A DNA stretch of 59,379 nt, filler included, from Dugesia japonica (lineage: Eukaryota), in NCBI GenBank assembly GCA_001938525.1. It is 5 parts of 5 records of this genome, joined end to end, with 100 filler letters (N's around TTAATTAATTAA, not from the genome) between each part and the next. Parts side by side here need not be neighbours in the genome. Positions count along the whole stretch, not along the records: positions 28,718 to 41,880 come from MQRL01622777.1; 4 more parts are not named here. One strand, given 5' to 3'. A program made the position numbers and the translations under genes. This document shows, piece after piece, positions 28,720-39,400 of the stretch. Each line of letters starts with the position of its first letter. The first letter of the stretch is position 1. The notes beneath the pieces are model-generated. The model saw only the letters and a list, made by a program, of their open reading frames with translations, made no database searches and was not told the DNA's origin.

Positions 28720-29376
28720 GGTAAAAATGTAATATTAACAGTTATAGATCTTTACACGAGATTTGCATTCGTAGAACTTTCTAAAAGTAAACCTGGCCAA
28801 GCAACAACAAAAGCATTTGAAAAAATTTTAACTTAAAGTTTTAGAACTCCAAATAAATTATGGGTAGATCATGGTAAAGAATTTTATAATCAACATTTTA
28901 AATCTTTCTGTAAAAATAATAACATTGAAATCTATTCAACTGAAAATCAAGGCAAAGCAGTTGTCATTGAAAGATTTAACAGAACATTTAAAAACAAGCT
29001 CTTTAAACATTTAACTGCCGTTGGTAATCAAGATATAAGCGAAGCGCTTTTAGAAAAAATTGTACATGAATACAATAACAGTGTGCATTCTAGTATTAAC
29101 ATTACACCTCAAGAAGCAACAAATAATCCAGAAAGTATTAATATCGCGAAACCAAAGCCTTTCAATGAAAAATCAAAATTTAATATTGAAGATAGAGTAA
29201 GAATAACTAAAATAGGAAAAACATTTCCTAAAGGTTATACTTTTAAATGGTCAAAAAGAATTTATATTATTAGTAAAATACACCGCGAGCCATTTACATA
29301 TCAAATCAGTAATCTTAACGGCAACAAAATATTGGGGAGATTTTATAGTAATGAATTACAGAAAACTTTATTATGA
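28720..29376 (+). pseudogene. Polinton retroviral-like (rve) integrase, 5' part missing, one in-frame TAA
   Basis: LTVIDLYTRFAF, KLWVDHGKEFYN, VIERFNRTFK, YNNSVHSSINITP, KGYTFKWS, GRFYSNELQK; TAA at 28834-28836. Confidence 0.92.
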
Positions 29377-29596
29377 TTAAAGTATAAATCTTAAAATTGA
29401 TGATGTTAAAGATCTTTTAGAGCATTTAAATTTAGTTGTTGCTGATTTGCTTTTTATTGATATTCCAGGAAAAAAAGATTATTTTAACATAATCAAAGAT
29501 AATATATTAGATCTTAAAGATAATATAAAATTTTATCTAGCAATATCAACTTTAAAATTTGAAGGTGAAACAAGAAATTAAAATGTAAAATGTCTT

Positions 29597-29812
29597 GTGT
29601 TAAAATTTTATATAATAAAAATGGATGAAGAATTAGTAGAAGTTAAAAATAAAATAAAAGATGTTAAATGTAAAACTTATAATTTAAAATCTGATGATGA
29701 TGAAATTGAAATTGAATATACAAAATGTTTTGAGAAAAATGTAATACATAAAATTAAATATTTAATAAATAGCGAAGCAAATAGCAGTGAAAATGACATA
29801 TGTGTGGAATAA
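29597..29812 (+). CDS. Small Polinton hypothetical protein (probable ATG 29621)
   Basis: Short K/E/D-rich ORF between integrase and ATPase, overlapping the ATPase start. Confidence 0.45.
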   Translation: MLKFYIIKMDEELVEVKNKIKDVKCKTYNLKSDDDEIEIEYTKCFEKNVIHKIKYLINSEANSSENDICVE

Positions 29813-30542
29813 AAATATTACACATTTTAAAAATAAAGTGTTACCTAATAATTTTAGACTTTTAATGATTGGATCTTCAGGTTGTGATAAAAATGTTTTA
29901 TTAATGAAAATGTTATTAACACCTGAATTTTTAGATTATGATGTTTTAATAATTTACTCTACAACAATTACCCAATTTGAAATTCAATTGTTATATTTAG
30001 GATTTGAAAATGGATTATCTAAAGATGAAATTAGTTTTATGTTTGTAAAACAAAATATAGTACCAGATACATGTATTACTCCATATCAAGTCTTGCAATA
30101 TTTTATTGATAAAAAATTAGTTACTAAAAAACCAAGAAGTATAAATGTAACATTAAGTAATAAACCTAATGAAATAATTTCTTGTGATAAACTTTCTAAG
30201 GAAAAGAAAAACTTAATAATTTTTGATGATGTTGTTAATATAAAAAATCAAGAAATCCAAAAAATTTATTTCACAAGAGGTCGTCATTCTAATTGTAATG
30301 TAATTTATATTTCACAAACATATTACCATCTTTATAAAAACTCTATCAGAAATAATTCAAATTATTATATCTTATTCAAATTAAATAAAACTGATAGAGA
30401 TAATGTTTATCATGAGTTATTTTCAAATATATTTGAAAACAAGTTAGAATATGATTATGAAGTAAATATTCACTGGAAAACTAAATATAATTATTTTTAT
30501 TTGAACAAAGAAACTGATGAAATGTTAGATGATTTATTTTAG
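29787..30542 (+). CDS. A32/FtsK-like DNA packaging ATPase (degenerate Walker A)
   Basis: LLMIGSSGCDKN (GxSGxGKT altered), LIIFDD Walker B, FTRGRHSN arginine finger, IYISQ, IRNN. Confidence 0.92.
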   Translation: MKMTYVWNKNITHFKNKVLPNNFRLLMIGSSGCDKNVLLMKMLLTPEFLDYDVLIIYSTTITQFEIQLLYLGFENGLSKDEISFMFVKQNIVPDTCITPYQVLQYFIDKKLVTKKPRSINVTLSNKPNEIISCDKLSKEKKNLIIFDDVVNIKNQEIQKIYFTRGRHSNCNVIYISQTYYHLYKNSIRNNSNYYILFKLNKTDRDNVYHELFSNIFENKLEYDYEVNIHWKTKYNYFYLNKETDEMLDDLF

Positions 30543-30567
30543 CTTTATGCATCCCGTTGCTCTAGAT

Positions 30568-35865: not shown

Positions 35866-35906
35866 AACCGTAGGCTTTGCTATTTTCTATAGAAAGGATT
35901 TATCAT

Positions 35907-36455
35907 TCAACATTGAACATTTTGATTTGGGTTATAAGGATTTAGATAAAGACCATTTACATTTTGCACTACATGTATTCCATCTTTAAATATTTTAGTA
36001 ATATCTTTTAAGTTAGGATCTTCAATAATATTTTTTAAATATTTATGTATTGCAGAACCTTGCCATGGATTTAGATATAAACCAGTACCTTGATGGGCTT
36101 CGCCTCCATGATATGGATTTAGATATAAGCCTTCTCCTTTTGGTTTATCACGAAATTCAGTCTCTTTTTGATGTTTAATTGCTTCTTTTGAACTAGCTAC
36201 GGTTGATGCAATTCCAGATGCAATACTAGCAGTTCCAGCTAAAGCACCAATAATTGCTGGTATTCCAGCTAGAAATGCAAAACCTCCGTTATGGGCTTCG
36301 CTACCTTCTTTTTTCTTTTTTAATTCATCTTTTACTTTTTTACTAATATAATAATTTTTACCGTTTATATTTACAGATTTACATTTCTTTGAATTAACTA
36401 TTTTCTCTAATTCTTCTTCTGTTGGGTTATCTGCTTTATGCGCTGCGCTGCTCAT
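35907..36455 (-). CDS. Adenovirus pX/Mu-like core protein precursor
   Basis: Basic stretch followed by GGFAFLAGIPAIIGALAG; three GLYLNP(Y/W) repeats. Confidence 0.65.
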   Translation of the reverse strand: MSSAAHKADNPTEEELEKIVNSKKCKSVNINGKNYYISKKVKDELKKKKEGSEAHNGGFAFLAGIPAIIGALAGTASIASGIASTVASSKEAIKHQKETEFRDKPKGEGLYLNPYHGGEAHQGTGLYLNPWQGSAIHKYLKNIIEDPNLKDITKIFKDGIHVVQNVNGLYLNPYNPNQNVQC

Positions 36456-36464
36456 TTTTCTATA

Positions 36465-39400
36465 TTAACAATTTAATGTTTTATTTATCAAGTCTAATCT
36501 TAAATGCCAATATTCACAATTTTCACATTCAAATTTATTTCCATGCGGCCAAGTTTTTTACCCATTATCTTCAATGATTCTTTTGTCATCAAAAGCCATT
36601 AATGTAATCTTTTTTTGTTCTACTATTTCAATTTCATGTAATATAGATCTTAAAGAATAATTTGTTCCATAAATTATTTTTTTAGGATCTTTTAATACTT
36701 CATCAAAATCTTTCATCAGTAATTTATTATTTTTCTTTACACCTTTATTTCTTGAATCGAAACCGGTACCGTTGTGGGGTGTGCTATCATATTCATAAGC
36801 ATAAGATTTTGCTTTTATAAAATTACCTTGAATTATTTCAGAATCAGGTTTTTCATCTTTCATCTGAAATAATTCATCTCCCAATAAACTTTCTAATTTC
36901 CTTAAATTGTCTCTATTTTTTATCTCAACAAAGATAGCATCAGTATCTGTATAATGAATTTTATAATTATCATTTCCAATTAATGGATCCATTTGTTCAC
37001 ATATAAAATTATACATTACTTGTTTTGCATGTTCAAGTATTGTGAATCCTATATATGGAAATTTGTTATATCTTAAATTACCTTTTACCATATGCATTGC
37101 CGTAACATTAGCTTCATTACTTTCATTTCTTGTGAAGATTTTACTAGATTTAAAATTCTTTTTAAAAGCAAACTTTTGATAATCTTTGTTGGTATCTACA
37201 ATTTCTATGTTGTATCTATTTCTGATATTTTCTAAGGTTTTTCCATAGAAAGCATTTAACATTAATTTATAAATGTAATCACCAAAAACATCTTTATTTC
37301 TTTTTGCTTATTTTCTTAAAGCTACTAATTTATGAACATGTTCTTTAAACCATGTAGATGTTCTCATTAATATTTTCTTGTGAACTTTTATTAGTTTCAT
37401 TCCTAATTTTAAATATAAATCTAATGTACTTCCAAGTAGAACATAATTTTTCTTATCAAATTGATTCAATGTAAGTTTAATATTATCCTTTGATATTTTC
37501 TTATTAAAACTTTTTTGATAATTACTTAACATGTCTCGTGTAATATTTATTCTTTCTGGACATAATGGGAAATATTTTGTTTTATCATGTATTTCTGGTG
37601 GATATTCAAGGTCAACTTCATAAATGTAATTAATGTTATCAGTTGACATTTCATATGTTAAATCTTCACATTCGGTCATTTCACCTGTTGGTAATGGTCT
37701 AGTCATGCAACTTGCATATAAATAATTTTCATCAATATATTTTATAAATGTTTCTTTAAAATAATCATCTGGAATATTTTTCTTTTCTTTTAATAAATTA
37801 AGGAGATCTTCTCTTTGTGCTTTATTTATTACTCTGTAAGGTTTTGATTTATTGTGAGAAAAGACTTGTCTTTCACCCAACACACCAGAATATCCACCTC
37901 TAATTCCTTCTTCGATCATTAAAAATGTATCATAAGTTTCTTGCTTCGCATATTTCAATTTTACATTTGCATTTAATATTCCAGTTTCCCAAGAATATCC
38001 TGGTGCTGTATATGAATAAGATGGATCTATTTTAAGAATATTATTTAAACATGAATCTCTAAAGTTTTCTAAGAAGTCAGTTAATATCAAAACATCTAAC
38101 TTCATATAGTGTAACATGTAACACCACATATTTTCAAAAGGATAAAAGTCTTCTAAAAATATTTTATATTCTTCATTAGATATTTCTTTTTGATTTAATG
38201 TATTAAAGAAATCTTCTTTTGTTGGTATTTTATTTAATTTTAATAATTCTTCAACTTCTTGAATATTATTTCCTTTAACATATTCATAAGGAAATATAGC
38301 TTTCTTTGGTTTTAAATTAAAAGAATTTAATACTGGATAATTACCTGATTGTGTAAGTAATTTTCCCATTACTTCAATTGTTGTAAATGGAAGTAATCTT
38401 GCTGAATCAAGAAATTTTATATTTCCAAATTCAAATGAAATATAATTATCTGATGAATGTGGGATTATTCTTTTAACTTTTCCTGTAAACTTTGTTAATT
38501 GTTCCCTAAAAAATAAATGGTTATCATATCCAGATGCGTTATGAAAGTAAAATGGTATAAATAAATTCTTATTAGAAAGATCATTTAAATTGCAATCATT
38601 ACATGAATAACCGCGAAATTCTCCATTAAAATGGTTATGATCTTTAACTGGAGTTTCACATATAACATTTTCACAAAATCTACATTTTGTGTCTGGTGTA
38701 TATTCTAGATGATTTGTTCCTGTATATTCTTTTATTAATTTATTTTCTTTTATATCTTTTAATTTATTATTAGTTTCTTCTAAAAATTCAAAGAAGTCAT
38801 CATAAATGTTTTCGCCTGAGAATTCATAATATTTACTTTCTATTAATTCTTGATAATCTGATTTTAAATAAAGACCTAATGATAAAGCTTTTTGTTTTTT
38901 ATCTAAATTTGTGTAAGATTCAAAATCTCCAATTAATACAAATGGTATTTTATTTTTTTGATAATATTTATTAAATGAATAATAATCATTGTGTTCAAAA
39001 ATAATTTTATTAGGTTTATGTCTAATGCATGCATCTTGATGTTTATTTAAAACTGCTTCAGATGAATAACAGTTCATACATCTAATACATGGATAGTTTG
39101 TGTTTCTATTTTCTGATGTAAAAAATACAGTTAGATCTCTACATAAAATGTAATGATCTTTATATACTAACAAATTACATTTATTTTCTTCTGGTGATGG
39201 ATTTCTTGTATAATGTGAAATGTGTAATGGTTCAAGTTTTTTATTATCATTTACTGAAAATACATTTATTTCTAAATTATTTAATTTCTCAAATTTACTT
39301 ATATCATCAATATTCATTGGAAATTTAAAACCTGAATATTTGAAATCTGTTAAATGTGGAATATAATTTTCTACACGTGTTGGATTAGCAACTACATATT

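What the first reader, a model, noticed from the sequence alone, without database searches (positions are those of the whole stretch)
29039..37949. Polinton studded with GC-rich triloop mini-hairpin 7-mers at gene starts and as in-frame micro-insertions
Seen: in this very AT-rich element, three related 7-mers recur. GCGAAGC or its reverse complement is at 29039, 29772, 31568, 34787, 36097, 36295 and 37943. GCAAAGC/GCTTTGC is at 31544, 31648, 32241, 33806, 33832 and 35874. CCGTAGG is at 31558, 33796, 34777 and 35868, with a variant at 34977. GCGCAGC (reverse) is at 36442. They combine into cassettes (GTCCGTAGG.(C/T)AGC, ATGGGCTT(C/T)GC). Copies lie 2-6 nt upstream of the ATGs at 31537, 32238, 33793, 34974 and 35865, and also inside ORFs where they look like inserted peptides (penton REAGLRT; core protein SEAH/GEAH; integrase SEAL). 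I did not notice them in the flanking host or other transposon DNA. Established: d(GCGAAGC) and related GNA-triloop heptamers form unusually stable, nuclease-resistant ssDNA hairpins; phage N4 promoters use such hairpins; pPolB replication exposes a displaced single strand. Inference: an element-specific cis-signal (ssDNA promoter, translation, packaging or protection mark) or a selfish micro-repeat spreading during strand-displacement replication.
Basis: partly seen in the sequence, partly recalled or inferred. Interest (0 to 1): 0.8.

Follow-up and report, generated by a model that had tools for sequence, protein, structure and literature searches.

The report
Mini-hairpin micro-inserts colonising a Polinton lineage
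One branch of a virus-like jumping gene (a Polinton) in an AT-rich animal genome carries many tiny GC-rich hairpin modules of about 18-24 bases, at least two of which are missing from sister copies, so they are likely selfish micro-inserts that spread to gene starts and protein loops and not a signal the element needs.

Summary
All listed sites are present. GCGAAGC (7 vs 0.06-0.23 expected), GCAAAGC (7 vs 0.35-0.5) and CCGTAGG (4 vs 0.03-0.05) are the top non-microsatellite GC-rich 7-mers of the element and sit at chance level in 46 kb of flank. The 7-mers are parts of two shuffled double-hairpin cassettes of 18-24 nt. At 33793, sister copies in two species carry the empty site, and this copy has two 23-nt inserts there, each with a 2-nt direct repeat. 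The core protein is also longer at its three motif sites. Corrections: GCAAAGC is not a mini-hairpin, the integrase and polymerase sites are substitutions and not inserts, and polarity at the penton is unsettled. Best reading (0.55): a non-autonomous micro-insertion family like yeast GC clusters or fungal double-hairpin elements, smaller and inside a Polinton sublineage; the copying mechanism is inferred. A sublineage-specific expression signal stays possible (0.2); RNA data were uninformative. The scan has noted similar GCGAAGC micro-inserts in bacterial IS elements and giant viruses (unchecked). My paper searches found no report for Polintons.

The parts
28719..39726 (.). Right-hand part of a decayed Polinton/Maverick (integrase, A32 ATPase, protease, penton, core protein, pPolB). 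Left end lost in an N gap; no major capsid gene seen in the held part
   Evidence: Pfam Pox_A32 1e-09; integrase homologs with PF00665; pPolB 7132 hits; protease, penton and integrase match Polinton locus L007; terminus reads AGTAGT from about 39726 on the minus strand
33794..33816 (-). Type A double mini-hairpin insert, 23 nt (GC-AAA-GC, TAG, CC-TAC-GG), ending in AT that duplicates the AT before it and forms the start codon at 33793
   Evidence: Empty site in sister contigs: joint 33793->33843, 49 nt replaced by 3-4 letters, in 6/3/5/2 contigs of X1/X2/X3/X9; sequence
33822..33844 (-). Type B insert, 23 nt (GC-AAA-GC, CC-CATAAAA-GG), ending in AG that duplicates the AG before it; holds the stop codon of the frame that carries the protease's C-terminal part
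   Evidence: Same joint; three-frame reading
34773..34797 (-). Type A cassette in frame in a penton loop (DREAGLRT): GC-GAA-GC, TGG, CC-TAC-GG
   Evidence: Joints 34770->34821 (5/3/4/2 contigs) and 34773->34823 (1 contig; 13 letters in place of 49, net 36 nt); loop length varies among distant homologs
31538..31580 (-). Two nested cassettes before the ATG at 31537: type A with inverted first loop (GC-TTC-GC), then a truncated type A; together they fold into one longer hairpin (-4.7 kcal/mol, + strand)
   Evidence: empty site not seen
31630..31657 (-). Degenerate type A cassette right after the stop of ORF 31657-32238 (loops TTT and TTC)
32235..32251 (-). Compact type A cassette filling the 13-nt spacer before the ATG at 32238; the second hairpin is CC-GAT-GG and includes the start codon
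34250..34284 (-).
34975..34986 (-). Type A remnant (second hairpin half only) touching the penton ATG at the end of a 279-nt spacer
35866..35882 (-). Compact type A cassette before the ATG at 35865
   Evidence: summed contig depth 130 vs about 23,000 nearby; empty site not seen
36090..36107 (-). Type B cassette in frame in the core protein (GEAHQ)
   Evidence: 6 residues longer than P0001 between the LYLNP repeats; one sister contig holds the tail without the leading GC (joint 36101->36156)
36288..36305 (-). Type B cassette in frame in the core protein (SEAHN)
   Evidence: 11 of 12 homologs are 4-8 residues shorter here and one is 1 longer; sister contigs span it with 3-9 gap letters
36432..36452 (-). 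Type B variant right after the core ATG: GC-GCA-GC then GC-ATAAA-GC (outer pair changed on both sides against CC...GG)
   Evidence: Loose-end consensus of 4 X1 contigs (agreement 0.7) gives an N-terminus 7 codons shorter
29765..29792 (+). GCGAAGC with an AAATAGC repeat, 14 nt before the ATPase ATG, inside a 63-codon ORF
29036..29048 (+). GCGAAGC in the integrase, within a 5-bp-stem palindrome; no length gain against the best homolog
37942..37950 (-). GCGAAGC in pPolB (3-bp stem); same spacing as the two best homologs, so a substitution

Best explanation
The 7-mers are the cores of two small GC-rich double-hairpin cassettes (18-24 nt) that are present in this Polinton copy and absent from sister copies at the same site, and they are likely non-autonomous selfish micro-inserts copied from site to site while this sublineage was still replicating. 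Shown: enrichment; shared multi-part cassettes at distant sites; one exact empty site with two 23-nt inserts and 2-nt direct repeats; stems kept while loops change or invert; all coding cassettes keep the frame. Inferred: the GNA mini-hairpin folds on single-stranded DNA exposed by protein-primed strand-displacement replication, stalls the polymerase and resists 3' exonuclease, so short strands that carry it survive and are copied into new sites by template switching at 2-6 nt microhomology. Inferred: cassettes end in AT, so insertion at a start codon rebuilds the ATG, and purifying selection leaves them only at gene boundaries and in frame in flexible loops. The variant at most starts (GCAAAGC) would be a copy that lost the first hairpin and went on being carried.
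For: Empty site: joint 33793->33843 in 16 contigs over 4 of 4 runs (3 studies, 2 species); the sister letters reappear in this copy split by two 23-nt inserts with AG and AT repeats. Core N-terminus 7 codons shorter in sisters; core loops shorter in homologs. The words follow the published rule: GC or CC stems with GNA loops 13 in the element vs 2 in 46 kb of flank; wrong-stem GNA words 1; reversed ANG loops 0 (rule from PMC13037366 section 2.3). Four type A copies share flanks while the first loop reads GAA, TTC, TTT or AAA, as expected from loop inversion in a folded hairpin. Nested and truncated copies at 31537, 33793, 34249 and 34974 resemble the merger and shuffling of yeast GC clusters (PMC4478555 passages). 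Spacing to ATG is not fixed. Related Polinton loci L004-L008 hold 0, 0, 0, 2 and 1 of the three words.
Against: Only one site has a clean empty allele; the other gene-start sites were not resolved. At the penton the sister loop (16 residues between anchors) is shorter than in the distant homologs, so insertion vs deletion is unsettled. At 36295 sisters differ by 3-9 letters, not a clean 18. At 36097 the cassette tail may be older coding sequence. The integrase and pPolB motifs arose without a length change, which plain insertion does not explain. 4 of 5 intergenic clusters sit at starts although only 22% of intergenic bases do (p about 0.01-0.05 by hand), so tolerance alone may not be enough. 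GCAAAGC 7 vs GTGAAGC 0 and its dominance at starts could mean a selected sequence. No mobilising enzyme is identified, and folding was not measured.
Confidence: 0.55

Rival explanations
1. The cassettes are an acquired transcription or translation signal of this sublineage, spread to its structural-gene starts by gene conversion and kept by selection; the copies inside genes are by-products.
For: Full or partial cassettes lie at 8 of the 11 starts listed. AAATAGC(A/G)AAGC precedes four starts. The purine-loop GC word is on the coding strand at 13 of 15 sites. In a 279-nt spacer the remnant touches the ATG. 4 of the 5 GC words upstream of starts are the non-hairpin AAA form, which fits a sequence motif.
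Against: Sister copies in both species lack the cassettes at 33793. Spacing is 2-14 nt with one site downstream of the ATG; several are nested or truncated; 8 of 19 sites lie inside the 12 main ORFs or the core N-terminus. No RNA polymerase gene in the held part. The RNA form of a related hairpin is far less stable (r(GCGAAAGC) 39 C vs 76.5 C for DNA).
Confidence: 0.2
2. A mutational bias of this lineage's polymerase (fold-back template switching) makes hairpins locally and independently; stable ones persist, and nothing moves as a unit.
For: 29039 lies in a perfect 5-bp palindrome and 31544-31575 forms an inverted duplication. The integrase and pPolB motifs arose in place. A related Polinton shows a 24-nt fold-back insert polymorphism between L004 and L005.
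Against: Local fold-back copies neighbouring sequence. It cannot give the same 20-nt two-hairpin cassette at 31558, 33796 and 34777, or the same type B tail at four sites.
Confidence: 0.13
3. The hairpins are selected marks on single-stranded genome DNA (nuclease protection, SSB-free priming or packaging sites), whatever their origin.
For: Precise fit to the stability rule. Mini-hairpins occur at phage G4 and ssiA priming sites (PMC13037366 passages). Two motifs arose by substitution in conserved genes.
Against: Absent from the terminal region, uneven along the element, missing from sister copies at tested sites; 7 of 19 sites cannot form the structure.
Confidence: 0.1
4. Chance, codon usage, CpG decay or an assembly artefact.
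For: The element has CpG o/e 0.53. The best runs may include the source sample.
Against: Markov and codon nulls are rejected. Flank CpG o/e is 1.0 and only one of the two deamination products occurs. Variant letters inside the 36295 cassette occur in 27-28 contigs per run, which suggests several real copies.
Confidence: 0.02

Closest known systems
GC clusters of yeast mitochondrial DNA (GC42; PMC4478555, passages read)
   Same: Short GC-rich hairpin units in AT-rich DNA, present or absent at homologous sites, 2-nt target repeat, changes mostly in loops, merger and shuffling, mechanism unresolved
   Different: Here 18-24 nt with 2-bp stems closed by GNA loops, in a nuclear virus-like transposon, gathered at start codons and in frame in genes
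Double-hairpin elements of chytrid and fission-yeast mitochondria (described in PMC10085805, passages read; the original papers not read) and sponge repetitive hairpin-forming elements (PMC2800124, passages)
   Same: Two adjacent hairpins, GC-rich, stems conserved and loops variable, thought mobile
   Different: Those are mitochondrial and mostly intergenic or in rRNA genes; their longer stems are recalled. Here standard DNA folding finds no stable structure for most cassettes
Mini-hairpin DNA d(GCGNAGC) and its natural sites in phage G4, ssiA and N4 promoters (PMC13037366, section 2.3 and passages)
   Same: Same core words; GC-GC and CC-GG stems with GNA loops
   Different: Those are single functional sites read by a primase or an RNA polymerase; here they are dispersed and dispensable at the tested site
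Small dispersed repeats of Nostoc and Rickettsia palindromic elements (recalled; lead from earlier scan notes; the SDR paper was not retrieved)
   Same: Very small repeats inserted in frame in genes, enzyme unknown
   Different: Bacterial and genome-wide; here confined to one Polinton sublineage and at chance level in host DNA
Polintons/Mavericks with canonical pPolB (PMC10748475, passages)
   Same: Gene set and terminal motif of the host element
   Different: No such micro-inserts found described or seen in five related loci

Membership tests
Polinton/Maverick (carrier element) | Protein-primed PolB, rve integrase, A32 ATPase, protease, penton | tested here: met
   several genes are broken in this copy
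Polinton/Maverick (carrier element) | Major capsid protein, both terminal inverted repeats, target duplication | tested here: inconclusive
   Only the right end (AGTAGT) is seen; the left part is lost in an N gap; no inverted partner in the window
GNA mini-hairpin DNA | GC-GC or CC-GG stem with a GNA loop | tested here: met
   12 of the 19 sites plus CCGGAGG at 32634 (rule)
GNA mini-hairpin DNA | Same rule applied to GCAAAGC | tested here: not met
   Only GNA of 64 loops forms the structure; 7 of 19 sites fail
GNA mini-hairpin DNA | High melting point and exonuclease resistance in the native context | not testable with these tools
   Nearest-neighbour folding lacks the GNA bonus
GC-cluster / DHE / RHE micro-elements | Presence-absence at homologous sites | tested here: met
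   33793 clean; core N-terminus; other sites partial or untested
GC-cluster / DHE / RHE micro-elements | 2-nt target repeat | tested here: met
   AG and AT for the two inserts at 33794-33844; one locus only
GC-cluster / DHE / RHE micro-elements | Stems conserved, loops variable, units merged or shuffled | tested here: met
   By inspection of 16 sites; stems are only 2 bp and no covariation statistic was run
GC-cluster / DHE / RHE micro-elements | Mitochondrial location and sequence kinship with described families | tested here: not met
   Nuclear Polinton context; sequence kinship not tested. It works like these families but is not filed as a member
N4-type hairpin promoter | Own single-subunit RNA polymerase; 5-bp stem at a set place before the start | tested here: not met
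   No RNA polymerase in the held part; stems of 2-3 bp at starts, spacing variable
Promoter or leader signal | 5' ends at a fixed position from the motif | tested here: inconclusive
   45 and 4 reads laid in two RNA runs, none 95% alike or more, no pile-up

The most novel reading that the evidence does not exclude
A 23-base double mini-hairpin is a true mobile element, among the smallest known, that parasitises a Polinton lineage in an animal genome. It is copied by the element's own replication machinery (possibly aided by the endonuclease VII-like domain of its polymerase), aims at start codons, rebuilds the ATG it interrupts and separates overlapping genes. It would be one case of a cross-kingdom rule that GNA mini-hairpins make ultra-short DNA mobile.
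Probability: 0.25. Interest if true: 0.8.

Novelty: new variant of a known kind. Interest (0 to 1): 0.58.

Why it matters
How hairpin micro-elements of under 50 bases move (yeast GC clusters, double-hairpin elements) is unresolved. Here such inserts sit in a very high-copy family with filled and empty alleles in one genome, next to a single candidate replication enzyme. Target rule, order of events and the role of the GNA hairpin can therefore be read from a long-read assembly and tested with oligos and a purified polymerase. It also shows a route by which a virus-like element gains leaders and new peptide loops.

Tried and rejected
Viral-contig scans with pPolB, the core alignment and the ATPase found no relatives. 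Cassette patterns in viral contigs gave 3 and 86 matches. None of the 86 matched the element's 12 proteins at E 1e-4, and the best extra-motif p was 0.002 uncorrected, so I treat them as chance; the 3 also look like chance. RNA: no listed holder on record as RNA; two raw RNA runs gave 45 and 4 distant reads and no start pile-ups, which is no evidence either way. Depth dips at motif sites are not specific, since motif-free bins dip too; they were not used as proof. CpG decay as the source of GCAAAGC: disfavoured. Endonuclease VII-like domain of pPolB as mobiliser: Pfam and PHROG hits are weak, a loose motif occurs in 91 of 151 pPolBs, and there is no significant PDB hit; it is not special to this lineage and stays speculation. 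Capture of a spliced leader was considered from recall and not tested; copies after stops and inside ORFs argue against it. The host species was not identified. No supplements were read.
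Full report
Setting. 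The region 28719-39726 is the right-hand part of a decayed Polinton in an AT-rich animal genome. It holds an integrase, an A32 ATPase, a protease and a penton matching Polinton locus L007, a core protein and a pPolB, and ends in AGTAGT. The left end is lost in an N gap, and several genes are broken by stops or frameshifts. The family is very abundant: about 63,000 contigs per run were laid at 80% likeness in three runs of organism A and 8,976 in one run of organism B.

Observation. Every coordinate is right. The three words exceed Markov expectation about 14- to 130-fold and top an unbiased 7-mer ranking apart from a microsatellite and AACATGT. They beat two codon-aware nulls in 2000 of 2000 draws. 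They are at chance level in 46 kb of flank (0, 3 and 0 against 0.67, 2.2 and 0.41). Of 13 clusters, 6 lie within 25 nt of a start (p about 4e-4). Of 5 intergenic clusters, 4 do, against 22% of intergenic bases.

Chemistry. A review (PMC13037366; section 2.3 and passages read) states that only GNA of 64 loops forms the mini-hairpin, and that GC-GC or CC-GG stems work while CG-CG and GG-CC do not. The element follows this rule: 13 conforming words vs 2 in the flank, 1 with a wrong stem, 0 with the reversed loop. GCAAAGC, 7 of the 19 sites, does not conform. It is unlikely to be plain CpG decay, because GTGAAGC is absent and flank CpG o/e is 1.0.

Anatomy. On the coding strand the words form two cassettes. 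Type A is GC-nnn-GC, a 0-3-nt linker and CC-TAC-GG, usually ending ACAT or ACAAT. Its first loop reads GAA (34787), TTC (31568), TTT (31648) or AAA (33806, 35874) between shared flanks. Type B is GC-(G/A)AA-GC followed by CCCATAA-GG or a close variant (33832, 36097, 36295); at 36442 the second stem is GC...GC instead of CC...GG. Truncated and mixed copies lie at 31544, 32241, 34270 and 34977. Standard DNA folding finds little beyond the 7-mers, except 31535-31585 (-4.7 kcal/mol) and 29030-29055.

Filled and empty sites. Contigs from 4 of 4 runs skip 33794-33842 with only 3-4 letters in its place. The sister letters reappear in this copy split by two 23-nt inserts, one type B with an AG repeat and one type A with an AT repeat; the latter ends in the ATG of the next gene. 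The empty state occurs in both species, so gain is the simpler reading. Four X1 contigs give a core N-terminus 7 codons shorter. The two internal core sites are longer than in 11 of 12 homologs and than in the one homolog with the tandem repeat. Against this: in the penton, sisters are 36 nt shorter but then shorter than the distant homologs, so polarity is open. At 36295 sisters differ by 3-9 letters, and one sister has the type B tail without the leading GC at 36097. The integrase is one residue longer than 44 of 50 anchored sequences but equal to its best hit. The pPolB site has the spacing of its two best hits. Those two are substitutions. The lay tables show only the best-supported rows (15 of 412 joints; 15 of 21), so the remaining gene starts are untested.

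Spread. Five related Polinton loci hold 0, 0, 0, 2 and 1 of the three words. Viral-contig scans found no relative or meaningful cassette match. Variant letters inside the 36295 cassette in 27-28 contigs per run suggest several cassette-bearing copies. The trait therefore looks sublineage-specific.

Mechanism. Shown: mosaic cassettes, an exact empty site, 2-nt repeats, frame kept in all coding cassettes. Inferred: gain took place in an actively replicating lineage under selection. The hairpin folds on displaced single strands, pauses synthesis and resists exonuclease (general properties), and is copied to new sites by template switching at short microhomology. The AT end lets it enter a start codon harmlessly. 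I put this at 0.55, a sublineage expression signal at 0.2, local fold-back mutation at 0.13, a selected single-strand mark at 0.1 and chance at 0.02. RNA reads could not decide.

Comparison. It works like yeast GC clusters, fungal double-hairpin elements and sponge hairpin elements, but is shorter, rests on 2-bp GNA stems and lives in a nuclear virus-like element; I do not file it as a member of those families. It fails the N4 promoter test. Six searches of the open literature (listings only, apart from passages of PMC10748475 and PMC11296320) gave no report for Polintons; subscription papers are not covered. Earlier scan notes describe GCGAAGC-based micro-inserts in bacterial IS elements and giant viruses and hairpin inserts at start codons in prokaryotes; these are unchecked and were used as leads only.

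Verdict. A real, well-supported feature and a new variant of a known kind; interest 0.58.

Noticed in passing
L004:1218-1250 vs L005 (ATPase gene): Two near-identical copies of a related Polinton differ by a 24-nt in-frame insert that forms a perfect 10-bp inverted repeat, a likely fold-back product.
   Followed up: partly
L049:3995-4025: A giant-virus MAG has a GC island with GCGAAGC in a longer stem plus two CCTACGG at a gene boundary in AT-rich DNA, the same two words as here; single case.
   Followed up: partly
window 31591-31630: (CACG)n microsatellite between two cassettes inside the element; the strongest k-mer signal.
   Followed up: no
window 32313-32517 and 32838-33039: ORFs 32252-32935 and 32957-33793 are tandem paralogs (73% DNA identity) of no known family; sisters show joints that skip or repeat about 500 nt here.
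   Followed up: no
window 30543-31673: Some sister contigs skip this 1131-nt block of small genes.
   Followed up: no
window 38585-38690 (-): Endonuclease VII-like zinc domain in pPolB with D-H and N motif residues present; common among pPolBs (91 of 151).
   Followed up: partly
window 39800-40300 (+): Fragments that look like the C-terminal part of a second pPolB just outside the element's right end; identification by eye, not found by tblastn.
   Followed up: no
window 39705-39726: The terminus begins AGTAGTAGAATAATAGCG on the minus strand, sharing AATAGCG with the cassette flank at gene starts; may be chance.
   Followed up: no
window 25078-25701 (+): Intronless RRM gene with an Arg/His/Asp-rich tail, possibly a retrocopy.
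   Followed up: no
L007; L008:6600-10337: Polinton DNA inside bacterial MAG records, probably mis-binned eukaryotic or viral sequence.
   Followed up: partly
window 28719-39730: ACATGT/AACATGT is also enriched in the element (AACATGT 15 vs 2.4 expected), unexplained.
   Followed up: no
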